Shown here one piece after another: positions 58,128-61,100 of a stretch of 64,000 bases of DNA. Position 1 is the stretch's first letter; each line of letters opens with the position of its first letter. This DNA comes from Octopus vulgaris (taxonomy: Eukaryota), in the NCBI GenBank assembly GCA_951406725.2, contig OX597827.1, positions 25,854,001 through 25,918,000 of the forward strand, given 5' to 3'. Position numbers: made by a program.

Positions 58128-61100
58128 TACCAGACAATTTGGAAAAACGGTCCTATGAACCTATGTCTCGGTAAGGACGATTTTTCTTTTGATGATGATG
58201 GATTGGGCATTAGTGGTGATGATAGTGTAAATGGAGATAATAATAACTTCGGTAGTGTTGGCAGTGTTTATGACATTAGAGGTTCTAATAATGATGGGAT
58301 ATGTCGCAGATAATCACACGGGTAGGTTTGGTATATTTATTGCTGTTTTGGAGGTGATGGGTGGTTGTGACACCGGTAGTGGTAATGGTGACATTGGTGT
58401 TAGAATAAAGGTGCAGCCCGGTGTTGTTGGTAGACGAATTATTGAAACGTGCCATGTGAATGAATATTGTTAATATTCAAATGTTATAATGTGCTCGCAT
58501 CGCAACTACACCGGGGAATAAGTTTGAGAAAGAGAACTCACTATGAATTTCATGTCAGAAAAAGCAAGATAACCATATAATACATGGAACTGCGTATATA
58601 CATGTATATATATATGAATATATATATATGTGTGTATACATATATGTATATATATATATATATACTAGCAGCATAGCCCGGCGTTGCCCGGGTATATAAG
58701 AGCCCCTAGTAGGCAACGACTAATCCCAATGTAGTCCTTTCCCTCCAGGGAACGAAGGTGCATGTGGACGTTGCAATGTCTTGTCTTCACTGGAATACTT
58801 CTGTATATACGATGTTCCTAGCTGTCTGTTTGGGCGAAAACATGAAAACATCATTGCGCCTCCCAATGCGTGAACAGCCCACGTAGAGTTGACCGTGGGC
58901 GAAGCACTGTTCGCCCAAATGTAACCCAGCGACTTGTAGCGTTTGGCCTTGGGATTTATTGATGGACATTGCGAAGCAGAGTTTAACAGGAAACTGAGAA
59001 CGCCTGAAGTGGATTGGTAGGTCAGCGCCCGACGGTTGAAGGTGCATCCGTGGAATGAAGACGTCCTCTCCCTTCCCACAACCGGTAAGTATTGTGGCCG
59101 TTATTAAATGTGGTGCGCTGATCCTGTGTAGGTTGTTACCACGGGAGGAGATGATTATGTCACGGCTGTTGTGTTGCTCTCCGTGTGTGACTGCGGCAAT
59201 TTCGTTGCACGCAGGTGCGTTGAAACGGCGTTCGTGCTCCCCGTGGGGTCGTTTATCAGCATCAATGACAACGGTGAAGTTTGGAGATGGAGCACTGTCC
59301 AAGGCATATCTGAAGCTGCAGACGTAGCTGTTGATATCATGAAGCATGGTTTGGAGACGGAGAAGAATGTCTTTGCGGGGAACATAGCTTGTACCCGGTA
59401 TTATTCCAAGGCGTGCATCAACCTGGTGGTTGTAGTCGGCAATGAAGTATATTTGGAGTAAAGAAGGCTGCTGAATCTCGTCTGGCAGAAGTGACCCAAT
59501 AAGATGGTAGACCTGTCCCTGCACTTTGAAAGTAGGCATCCAGCCTTCTCTGGGATGAATTTTGGCCCCGAAAGAGGTCATTTGGAATGAGCAGTTGTAC
59601 TTTCGAATTATTTCAAGGAATTGTGACGATTCGGGGGTTAAACCCGCCGCGAGATCCTTCAGTGGTTGAGGTGGTTCCCGTAGGGGTGGCAGGTCCACTT
59701 TGCCACCAGAGCAGCACAAAGCAGGTGGCTCTCCGTGCCATTTCTTGGCTTTGCAAAACTGGCATACAATTGTCATTGACCCTATCTTGATGTCGTCACG
59801 CAAGGAGAAGTTAATTGTGGCGTCGTAGTTGAATGCTAGTGACAACCAGAAAGCGGGGGCAGGGGTACGTACACCACGAATGATATCCCGACGTTTGTTG
59901 ATACTCTCAAGTCGAGTGCACCGTGCCTCAGCAGATTCAGATGCACGTGCGACAGCGGTAGCAGTGGCATCCCTTGAAAGCCTTTCAGCTCTCGCCTCAG
60001 CACCCTCTGAAGCCCTAGCAGAAGCAGTGTTAATGGCATGTCTGGATGTCCGAATAGTTCGTTGGTGTGGAGTTTCGGCAGATCGAGTCATGGCTGTGTT
60101 TGCGGCGTTAGCAGCTTGGCGAGCTCTCCTCTGTTGAGGTGCTTCGGCAGCTTGGGCCATGGCTTTGTTTGCGGCGTCAGTATCTTGGCGAGTTCTCCTC
60201 TGCTGTGAGGTTTCGACAGATCGTGTCCTGGCGGTGCTAGTGGCGTTAGCCGCATTCCGAATGGCCCTTTGTTCGGGGTTCTCGCGAGCTCTGCGGATGG
60301 AAGCACAGTAAGAAGCCCGCATGTTTTGGCTGGACTGTTGCTCTTTCGTCAACCTCGAGCGGAGGGAAGATCTGTACGCTGCGACCCTTGCAAGTCGGAT
60401 AGAACGGTCGCTAGTAGTTTCAGATGCCTGAGCAGCGGCATAACGGGAAGCTGTTTGCGAGAGGCGCAAGGCGGTTTCCTCGTGGGTCTCGCGTGCCCTT
60501 CTAGCCCTAGCAGCCGATGCCTTGGCCGTCCGAGGGCTGAGGAGGGTCCTTCTCTTCTTGGGTGGCATTTTGGTGGATAGCAATGTGTTTGGCAAAGGTG
60601 TAATAAAAAGGAACACGTGGGGTAAGTATTTTGGTGGATAGCAATGTGTTTGGTAAAGGTGTAATAAAAAGGAGCTCGTGGGGTAAGTATCCGAAAATGT
60701 ATAAAAATGTACAAAAACGTCCAAAAAGCGGGCAGAAATGTGAGTGACAACAACGAAAAAGTCAAAAGTGATCAAACTGAACAAACGAAAGGAAAAGTTT
60801 TTTTGATGCACACGACAAAAGTGGTTTATAATAAACCAAGAGTTTGCAAGTAGCGTCCGAGGACCGTTAGGGTACATCAAAAATTGAAGGTAAAACGTTT
60901 GGGGTGGTAGTTATAAAGAAAGTGTAAACAAAAAAAGTATTCGAATAACTTGCGGCTGCAGCAGCTATTAGCAGAAGTGGCGGTGTTGGGGTAAAGTCTC
61001 GAATGTAATTTCTTCCTGGTAGGAATTGGTTGGATCGAATTATCGATAGCTAAAAAGGTCAAGTTGCGTCCCCTAGACAGTCTGGTTTGTGTTTAATACA

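What the first reader, a model, noticed from the sequence alone, without database searches (positions are those of the whole stretch)
58787..60568. Helitron with an intact, in-frame-deleted ORF lacking both catalytic cores (STPR repeats + Zn finger + helicase tail)
Seen: this is the only long stop-free, frameshift-free ORF in a window where every other TE ORF is broken. At ~59116 (NNLHRIS|APHLIT) it jumps in frame from the region preceding the Rep domain to the last ~110 aa of the PIF1-like helicase. No HUH/Y2 Rep motifs and no Walker A/B are present. It keeps an NLS-like PPKKRR, roughly nine ~23-aa ETxxQRxxRL repeats and the CxxC..CC finger. Established: such repeats resemble the STPR DNA-binding repeats of Bombyx FMBP-1, and deleted transposases such as the P-element KP protein can act as repressors. 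Inference: this could be a DNA-binding-only Helitron protein (dominant-negative regulator or early domestication), or just a young deletion derivative.
Basis: partly seen in the sequence, partly recalled or inferred. Interest (0 to 1): 0.7.

Follow-up and report, generated by a model that had tools for sequence, protein, structure and literature searches.

The report
In-frame internally deleted Helitron transposase remnant
This is a Helitron transposon copy whose transposase gene lost its whole catalytic middle in one in-frame deletion, leaving an intact reading frame for a DNA-binding front end fused to a short helicase tail; it is most likely an ordinary young non-autonomous copy, not a new gene.

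Summary
On the minus strand, 60568..58787 is an unbroken 593-codon ORF. It aligns to residues 8-492 and then 1527-1631 of a 1631-aa full-length Helitron Rep/Hel protein. About 1034 profile positions are missing, covering Helitron_like_N/Rep, the PIF1 core and the 2B domain.

What remains:
- a basic N-terminal motif (PPKKRR);
- nine STPR repeats in strict 23-aa register;
- a CxxC-x12-CC motif;
- about 106 aa of helicase tail.

A Helitron-type 3' end (short GC hairpin, then CTAG followed by T) lies 122 nt after the stop codon. The 5' end could not be found.

The searches returned no near-identical protein and none with this junction. Other short proteins with an N-terminal part plus a tail do occur, each with a different junction.

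An intact frame only requires under roughly 2-5% neutral divergence, and a random deletion stays in frame one time in three.

Best reading: a young internal-deletion, non-autonomous HLE1 Helitron. A KP-like repressor role is possible but nothing here supports it. Genomic copy number, dN/dS, expression and orthology could not be tested with these tools.

The parts
58787..60568 (-). Intact 593-codon ORF (P0001) plus stop: an internally deleted Helitron Rep/Hel gene
   Evidence: homology
60548..60565 (-). Basic N-terminal motif PPKKRR (residues 2-7), NLS-like
   Evidence: Sequence. Homologs also begin MP.(K/R)(K/R). Nuclear import is inferred and was not tested.
59870..60490 (-). Nine STPR repeats of 23 aa (residues 27-233); repeats 5-7 are also a 69-nt tandem repeat in the DNA
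   Evidence: Pfam PF21107 E 2e-15. Register and conserved positions. AF2 places nine helices at 23-residue spacing with pLDDT 86-95. TRF and repeat family D4 at 60063-60269.
59117..59869 (-). Conserved Helitron N-terminal region (residues 234-484), including the CxxC-x12-CC motif at 59711..59764
   Evidence: Profile alignment. It matches the majority residue at 42 of 42 columns that are at least 95% conserved. Helraiser 76-348.
59114..59116 (-). Deletion junction (codon A485): about 1034 residues of Rep nuclease and helicase core are missing here
58790..59113 (-). Helicase C-terminal tail (residues 486-593), with the SINKSQGQ and YVGCSR stretches
   Evidence: Matches P0002 1527-1631, Helraiser 1375-1465 and PIF1 structures, and profile positions 1423-1527
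58665..58786 (-). 3' untranslated stretch and putative right terminal sequence: 5-bp GC stem (58692..58688 with 58681..58677), 8-nt spacer, CTAG at 58668..58665, then host T and (TA)n
   Evidence: Sequence. Fold (z -0.68, so weak on its own). The signature occurs only 3 times on both strands of the window, against a shuffle mean of 1.0.
60567..60688 (-). 61-nt tandem duplication (95% identical) ending at the start codon, in the 5' leader
60689..61708 (-). Upstream stretch that should hold the left terminal sequence; the 5' end was not identified
   Evidence: No second copy exists in the window to align. The sequence next to the (TA)n at 61709 does not begin with TC.

Best explanation
This is a non-autonomous copy of a canonical (HLE1-type) Helitron whose family carries STPR repeats at the transposase N-terminus. 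One internal deletion of roughly 3.1 kb removed the end of the N-terminal domain, the whole HUH Rep nuclease and the helicase up to its last 106 residues or so. The deletion happened to keep the reading frame, which a random deletion does one time in three.

The frame is still intact because the copy is young. The two ends of the ORF survive because they sit next to the terminal sequences that a Helitron needs in order to be mobilised in trans.

If the ORF is expressed, the product would be a very basic, probably nuclear protein. Its nine STPR helices and zinc-finger-like region could bind DNA, but it cannot nick, ligate or unwind. No selected function is implied.

Shown: the anatomy, the homology, the junction and the 3' end. 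Inferred: youth, mobilisation in trans and DNA binding.
For: Two-block homology to full-length Rep/Hel proteins, with 1034 profile positions missing. The two blocks abut in the DNA, at 59108 and 59110.

A GC hairpin, 8 nt, then CTAG followed by T lies 122 nt after the stop codon. This signature occurs 3 times on both strands of the window (shuffle mean 1.0). By my arithmetic, chance would put one within 300 nt on the correct strand less than about 1% of the time.

HELIANO reports STPRs as stably carried almost only by HLE1 elements, and gives TC / CTRR ends with A-T insertion for HLE1 (PMC11417382, passages read).

Neutral decay model: P(intact) is 0.28 at 2% divergence and 0.04 at 5% with substitutions only. 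It is 0.026 at 2% divergence if indels occur at 0.1 per substitution. Intactness therefore needs only youth.

The tail keeps helicase motif residues that are useless without the core: 29 of 32 columns that are at least 90% conserved. That fits recency better than adaptation.

No protein with this junction and no near-identical protein turned up. The best identity was 53% over 71% of the query, and 67% was the maximum on partial matches.

Other short N-plus-tail proteins have different junctions. In one search, 12 of 473 fetched proteins had N-core and tail hits less than 300 aa apart, 11 of them in N-then-tail order, with 53 aa the smallest gap. P0371, P0373 and P0440 were read by eye.

The N-core and the tail rank the same full-length homologs similarly (Spearman 0.36, p 7e-5, n = 114), which fits one parent for both parts.

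A paper on Octopus vulgaris repeats lists recently active Helitrons in a table row reading 8, 178, 765,802. I read these as families, insertions and bases, at 2% divergence or less (PMC13282606, passages). This matters only if the window is from an octopod, which I infer solely from the best hits being cephalopod proteins.
Against: Youth is inferred, not measured. There is no second copy in the window and no eukaryotic genome collection was open, so divergence, copy number and the autonomous parent are unknown.

The 5' end (TC after A) was not found, so the element may be 5'-truncated or not mobilisable.

The hairpin is only 5 bp, and its fold energy is not unusual (z -0.68, 45 of 200 shuffles fold as well).

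The N part matches all 42 of the most conserved columns. That fits purifying selection as well as it fits youth.

The database proteins with an N part plus a tail may be gene models that splice over broken sequence, so they are weak evidence that in-frame deletions recur.
Confidence: 0.75

Rival explanations
1. KP-like trans-repressor. The truncated protein is expressed, enters the nucleus and occupies the DNA sites that the full-length transposase needs: the Helitron ends or AT-rich target DNA. It would bind through its STPR and zinc-finger-like parts and so dampen transposition of the family.
For: [quoted passage not shown]

Helraiser lacking its N-terminal 489 residues neither binds nor cleaves ssDNA, so that region carries DNA binding (PMC4778049, passages).

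The STPR domain of FMBP-1 lies along the major groove of AT-rich DNA (PMC4856987, abstract and section 16).

The STPR block here has pI 11.75 and is confidently helical. The ORF has a native-looking start.
Against: There is no evidence of expression, amplification or selection.

The deletion starts at about Helraiser residue 360, while the proteolytic N-terminal domain runs to 489 (PMC4778049). About a quarter of that domain is therefore missing.

AF2 gives pLDDT near 30 for residues 445-535 around the junction, and pTM 0.41.

No relative with the same junction was found.
Confidence: 0.1
2. Early domestication. The ORF is now a host gene for a DNA-binding protein and no longer behaves as a transposon.
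For: The ORF is intact in a window where the other detectable TE frames are short pieces. STPR domains do occur in host transcription factors (PMC4856987, section 16).
Against: The Helitron-type 3' end is still attached. The useless helicase tail is retained and well conserved.

No similar-length counterpart above 67% identity exists in the protein collections. These include annotated Octopus sinensis, O. bimaculoides and Acanthosepion pharaonis proteins. Repeat masking before annotation could hide such a gene.
Confidence: 0.03
3. Artefact or chimera. Either the junction is an assembly collapse between the two ends of a full-length copy, or it is a join of pieces from two different Helitron copies.
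For: This cannot be excluded from one assembled sequence. Helitrons are known to form composite copies (PMC4778049, passages).
Against: The join is clean and in frame, with no N and no repeat at the break. Both parts rank the same homologs similarly. The closest tail relative, P0373, is also a fairly close relative in the N part: 76% identity over 76 aa in the tail and 54% over 119 aa in the N part.
Confidence: 0.07

Closest known systems
Non-autonomous Helitrons (HLE1) derived from autonomous copies
   Same: Loss of the RepHel domains with the terminal regions kept. The 3' end has a stem-loop followed by CTRR, with a host T after it (PMC11417382; window).
   Different: It still carries a long, intact, in-frame remnant of the transposase ORF. 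The 5' end and the copy number are not established here.
Helraiser / Helibat1 transposase (PDB 7lcc)
   Same: The N-terminal zinc-finger-like region and the helicase C-terminus are homologous: 76-348 and 1375-1465, E 4.6e-39. The N-terminal domain is needed for ssDNA binding and cleavage (PMC4778049).
   Different: The window protein lacks the equivalent of about residues 361-1374, which includes the HUH nuclease and the ATPase core. It also has nine STPR repeats in front, which did not align to the Helraiser chain.
FMBP-1 STPR domain of Bombyx mori (PDB 5d23)
   Same: 23-residue basic repeats with Glu1, Thr/Ser2 and Arg9. Pfam STPRs hit at E 2e-15. Weak direct match at E 0.0035.
   Different: Nine repeats instead of four. 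The third repeat lacks both Glu1 and Arg9. The context is a transposase rather than a transcription factor. DNA binding and sequence preference were not tested.
P element KP repressor
   Same: An internally deleted, non-autonomous element that encodes the DNA-binding front of its transposase (PMC7776569).
   Different: A different superfamily and a different DNA-binding fold. That KP dimerises and that its DNA binding inhibits transposase I saw only as titles in that paper's reference list. Repression here is pure conjecture.

Membership tests
Helitron (HLE1) element | Coding sequence homologous to the Rep/Hel transposase | tested here: met
   E 1e-125 to a 1631-aa Rep/Hel protein. Two collinear blocks. 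Helraiser E 4.6e-39.
Helitron (HLE1) element | 3' end: stem-loop a few nt before CTRR, followed by host T | tested here: met
   5-bp GC stem, 6-nt loop, 8-nt spacer, CTAG at 58668..58665, then T. The signature is rare in the window (3 hits). The stem alone is not significant.
Helitron (HLE1) element | 5' end TC preceded by host A | tested here: inconclusive
   There are many ATC sites upstream and no second copy to align. The border with the (TA)n at 61709 does not read TC.
Helitron (HLE1) element | Repeated in the genome with shared ends | not testable with these tools
   There is only one copy in the window. No eukaryotic genome collection was open.
Autonomous Helitron | HUH/Y2 Rep nuclease and SF1B helicase core (Walker A/B) | tested here: not met
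   No Helitron_like_N or PIF1 in Pfam. No such motif by regex. Profile positions 389-1422 are absent.
STPR domain (Pfam PF21107) | Tandem 23-residue basic repeats with Glu1, Thr/Ser2 and Arg9 | tested here: met
   57.4 bits against a cut-off of 27. Nine repeats in strict register, with Glu1 in 8 of 9, Thr/Ser2 in 6 of 9 and Arg9 in 8 of 9. Features taken from PMC4856987 section 16.
STPR domain (Pfam PF21107) | Binds the major groove of AT-rich double-stranded DNA | not testable with these tools
   Known for FMBP-1 only (PMC4856987 abstract). Here it is an inference.
KP-type truncated-transposase repressor | Internal deletion that keeps the DNA-binding part and loses catalysis | tested here: met
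   However, about 130 residues of the Helraiser-defined N-terminal domain are also lost.
KP-type truncated-transposase repressor | Expressed, and inhibits transposition in trans | not testable with these tools
   No expression data or assay was available.
Domesticated transposase gene | Orthologs under purifying selection, with transposon ends lost | tested here: not met
   The 3' end is retained. No counterpart of similar architecture appeared. Synteny and dN/dS were not testable.

The most novel reading that the evidence does not exclude
An in-frame deletion derivative of an STPR-bearing Helitron encodes a catalytically dead, nuclear DNA-binding protein. This protein competes with the full-length transposase for Helitron ends or AT-rich targets. 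It would be the first KP-like, self-encoded repressor described for rolling-circle transposons, and a possible first step toward a host STPR transcription factor.
Probability: 0.07. Interest if true: 0.7.

Novelty: new member of a known kind. Interest (0 to 1): 0.27.

Why it matters
As it stands, this is a well-preserved example of how a non-autonomous Helitron arises from an autonomous one by a single internal deletion. It is also a marker that a Helitron family with an STPR front end was active recently in this genome.

It would matter more if the junction-bearing ORF proved to be amplified, expressed and under purifying selection. Self-encoded truncated repressors are documented for P elements, but I found none described for Helitrons. 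My searches on this were made; none of them was aimed squarely at Helitron repressors, so this is a weak negative.

The link between STPR repeats, which prefer AT-rich DNA in FMBP-1, and Helitron insertion at A-T sites is an idea worth a bench test in any case.

Tried and rejected
1. Second copies in the window. tblastn with a full-length homolog and self-blastn of 58400-61720 found none. No divergence or dN/dS could be computed.

2. 5' end. Reading the upstream sequence, a repeat search and a GC profile gave no boundary.

3. Hairpin energy. It is not unusual. I therefore used co-occurrence of the whole 3' signature instead.

4. Relaxed constraint in the tail.
- The tail deviates from the majority residue more than the N part does: 11 of 53 against 6 of 81 columns that are at least 80% conserved, Fisher p 0.033.
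- Of the 7 deviant tail positions that P0373 covers, 4 are shared with that closest relative.
- The signal is therefore largely a family trait, and I dropped it.

5. Upstream extension of the frame to 60910 or the ATG at 60877. I rejected it as coding, because all three frames are open there and homologs start at the MPP position.

6. Structure search. Foldseek of the AF2 model against the PDB gave only 7lcc at E 0.02 with TM 0.15, which adds nothing to the sequence match.

7. Rfam and tRNA scans of the surroundings. They gave only sub-threshold microsatellite artefacts and no tRNA.

8. Naming the sources of the unnamed short N-plus-tail proteins.

9. The Helraiser cryo-EM paper. It is not held, so domain boundaries come from PMC4778049 only.

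10. Complex prediction. Not run, because no binding claim is made.

11. Collections.
- The prokaryote-only genome-contig collection was not scanned, as it cannot hold this element.
- No supplementary files were consulted.
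Full report
**What is there**

On the minus strand an ORF runs from the ATG at 60568 to the TGA at 58789..58787. It has 593 codons and no stop. It is by far the longest stop-free frame in the 64-kb window, at 707 codons stop to stop. The next longest are 394 and 303 codons, and the latter is low-complexity sequence.

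The window holds no N. Pfam finds one family in the protein, STPRs (PF21107, E 2e-15, 57.4 bits against a cut-off of 27). It finds no Helitron_like_N and no PIF1.

**The deletion**

The best full-length relative is a 1631-aa protein of the gastropod Nucella lapillus (P0002, E 1e-125). It carries STPRs, Helitron_like_N at 533-717, PIF1 at 1179-1391 and the Pif1 2B domain at 1479-1524.

BLASTP aligns P0001 3-487 to P0002 8-492 at 40% identity. It then aligns P0001 487-593 to P0002 1527-1631 at 55% identity.

A profile built from 116 full-length homologs gives the same picture. P0001 runs up to profile position 388 and resumes at position 1423, so 1034 positions are missing. The solved Helraiser transposase (7lcc) matches at 76-348 and 1375-1465.

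In the DNA the two blocks abut, at 59108 and 59110, and no piece of the core lies anywhere else in the window. No Walker A or HUH pattern is present.

The closest relative of the tail, P0373, reads PHLI on the helicase side and RISETH on the N side. This places the break at or beside codon A485, window 59116..59114.

**What is kept**

- Residues 2-7 read PPKKRR.
- From residue 27 there are nine repeats in strict 23-residue register. Glu is at position 1 in 8 of 9, Thr/Ser at position 2 in 6 of 9, and Arg at position 9 in 8 of 9. These are the three conserved positions named for STPR repeats in PMC4856987, section 16.
- Residues 1-230 have pI 11.75.
- The AF2 model was built from alignment A1 of 84 sequences and has mean pLDDT 70.8 and pTM 0.41. 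It places nine helices at 23-residue spacing with pLDDT 86-95.
- The same model gives pLDDT of about 30 for residues 445-535, the stretch on both sides of the junction.
- Cysteines 269, 272, 285 and 286 form the CxxC-x12-CC motif, which is also present in P0002 and Helraiser.
- The last 106 residues or so are the end of the helicase and match PIF1 structures at E 3.5e-8.

**Element ends**

The sequence reads CTAG at 58668..58665, 122 nt after the stop codon, followed by T and a (TA)35 tract. CTAG is preceded by an 8-nt spacer and a 5-bp GC stem with a 6-nt loop.

The fold energy of this stretch is unremarkable (z -0.68). However, the combined signature (GC stem, 5-15 nt spacer, CTRR plus T) occurs only 3 times on both strands of the window. 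In 30 block shuffles the mean was 1.0 and the maximum 3. One of the three sits exactly where a Helitron right end should be.

HELIANO describes TC / stem-loop plus CTRR ends and A-T insertion for HLE1. It also finds STPRs almost only in HLE1 (PMC11417382, passages).

I could not find the left end. No second copy exists in the window. The border with the upstream (TA)n at 61709 does not read TC, and the GC profile shows no step.

A 61-nt tandem duplication ends at the start codon. The frame is also open upstream to 60910. All three minus-strand frames are open there and homologs begin at the MPP position, so I do not count that stretch as coding.

**Relatives**

- The word-index search among longer proteins gave 216 hits at E 0.001 or better out of 8000 scored candidates.
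- The search among proteins of similar length gave 284 hits.
- The search among shorter proteins gave 450 hits.
- An exhaustive HMMER scan of 1.84 billion cluster representatives gave 13,308 hits at E 0.001 or better, of which 379 were at 1e-30 or better.
- None is near-identical. The best long match is 53% identity over 71% of the query (P0122, Acanthosepion pharaonis). The highest identity anywhere is 67%, over 34% of the query (P0145).
- The best named hits of similar length are cephalopod proteins: A. pharaonis, Octopus sinensis and O. bimaculoides. That is my only ground for thinking the window is from a cephalopod.
- No listed protein covers both sides of this junction without a gap.

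Short proteins that join an N part to a tail do exist. Eleven of them were in N-then-tail order, and the smallest gap was 53 residues. Read by eye:

- P0371 runs about 40 residues further on the left side and re-enters later in the tail.
- P0373 re-enters in the 2B domain.
- P0440 joins about 60 N-terminal residues to two tail copies.

These are independent events in other families. Some may be gene models that splice over broken sequence.

**Is the frame kept by selection?**

I could not measure this, so I asked three indirect questions.

First, how young must a neutral copy be to stay intact?
- 3.6% of single substitutions in this ORF create a stop.
- With substitutions only, P(intact) is 0.53 at 1% divergence, 0.28 at 2% and 0.04 at 5%.
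- With indels at 0.1 per substitution, P(intact) is 0.16 at 1% and 0.026 at 2%.
- An intact frame therefore says only that the copy is younger than roughly 2-5% divergence.
- For scale, a table of recently active elements (2% divergence or less) in Octopus vulgaris has a Helitron row reading 8, 178, 765,802 (PMC13282606, passages).

Second, does the protein still carry the family's conserved residues?
- The N part matches the majority residue at 42 of 42 columns that are at least 95% conserved, at 51 of 55 at the 90% level, and at 75 of 81 at the 80% level.
- The tail matches at 11 of 12, 29 of 32 and 42 of 53.

Third, is the useless tail decaying faster than the N part?
- The raw contrast is 6 of 81 against 11 of 53 deviant columns (p 0.033).
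- Of the 7 deviant tail positions that P0373 covers, 4 are shared with it.
- Most of the contrast is therefore a family trait, and I draw nothing from it.

A random deletion keeps the frame one time in three, so the in-frame join needs no special explanation.

**Mechanism**

The best reading is a young, internally deleted, non-autonomous HLE1 Helitron. In Helraiser the left end is required for transposition and the right-end hairpin acts as the stop signal (PMC4778049, passages). A deletion derivative that can still move must therefore keep both ends, and the adjoining ends of the ORF are carried along. That alone explains why N-plus-tail forms recur.

If the ORF is translated, the product has the STPR block. 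In FMBP-1 that domain lies along the major groove of AT-rich DNA, with each helix covering 4 bp (PMC4856987, abstract). The product also has most, but not all, of the N-terminal domain. Helraiser lacking that domain (its N-terminal 489 residues) neither binds nor cleaves ssDNA. The deletion here begins at about Helraiser residue 360.

Such a protein could compete with the transposase for DNA, as small P elements do through KP (PMC7776569, passage). Nothing I could run speaks for or against that.

**Surroundings**

The other recognisable TE coding pieces in the window are short:
- mariner Transposase_1 at 45549-45893 (-) and at 939-1244 (+);
- a helix-turn-helix (HTH) piece at 45927-46211 (-);
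- a Mos1 HTH at 12542-12772 (-);
- a weak RVT_1 hit at 2664-3221 (+).

**What stayed unchecked**

- Genomic copy number, the autonomous parent, the left end, dN/dS, expression, orthologous presence and read support for the junction.
- The Helraiser cryo-EM paper was not held.
- No supplementary files were read.

**Verdict**

This is a new member of a known kind and of modest interest.

Noticed in passing
window 55870-57051 (-): A 394-codon open frame. Its middle part gives a weak GIY-YIG hit (PF01541, E 0.043, below cut-off). From memory it resembles the endonuclease end of Penelope-like elements. Its C-terminal part is low-complexity Leu/His runs.
   Followed up: partly
window 45549-46211 (-), 939-1244 (+), 12542-12772 (-): Fragments of mariner/Mos1-type transposases (Transposase_1 at E 2e-18 and 3.4e-6; HTH_48 at E 6e-20; HTH pieces). 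All lie in frames of 115 aa or less, so they are broken copies.
   Followed up: partly
window 61048-61084 and 61461-61497: A 37-nt direct repeat (84% identical, with a 20-nt exact core found only at these two places, none expected by chance) lying 413 nt apart, upstream of the Helitron ORF. It contains CTAGGGG, as does the stretch just before the 3' hairpin. Its meaning is unknown.
   Followed up: partly
database proteins P0363, P0365, P0440, P0441 (not in the window): Predicted proteins made of several head-to-tail copies of the Helitron helicase tail. This suggests tandem arrays of Helitron 3' regions in other genomes. Their sources are unknown.
   Followed up: no
window 18000-21000: A GC-richer stretch (0.44 against a window mean of 0.36) with long open frames on both strands. 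They are made of Ser/Pro, Asp, Ile/Thr and Val runs, so this is low-complexity repeat sequence rather than a gene. A weak Gaa1 hit (E 3.4e-4) there is probably spurious.
   Followed up: partly
window 58595-58664, 61709-61904, 62013-62128 and others: Long (TA)n microsatellites flank the element. They give sub-threshold Rfam hits to mir-297, mir-466 and similar families, which are artefacts. The Helitron right end abuts one such tract directly.
   Followed up: yes
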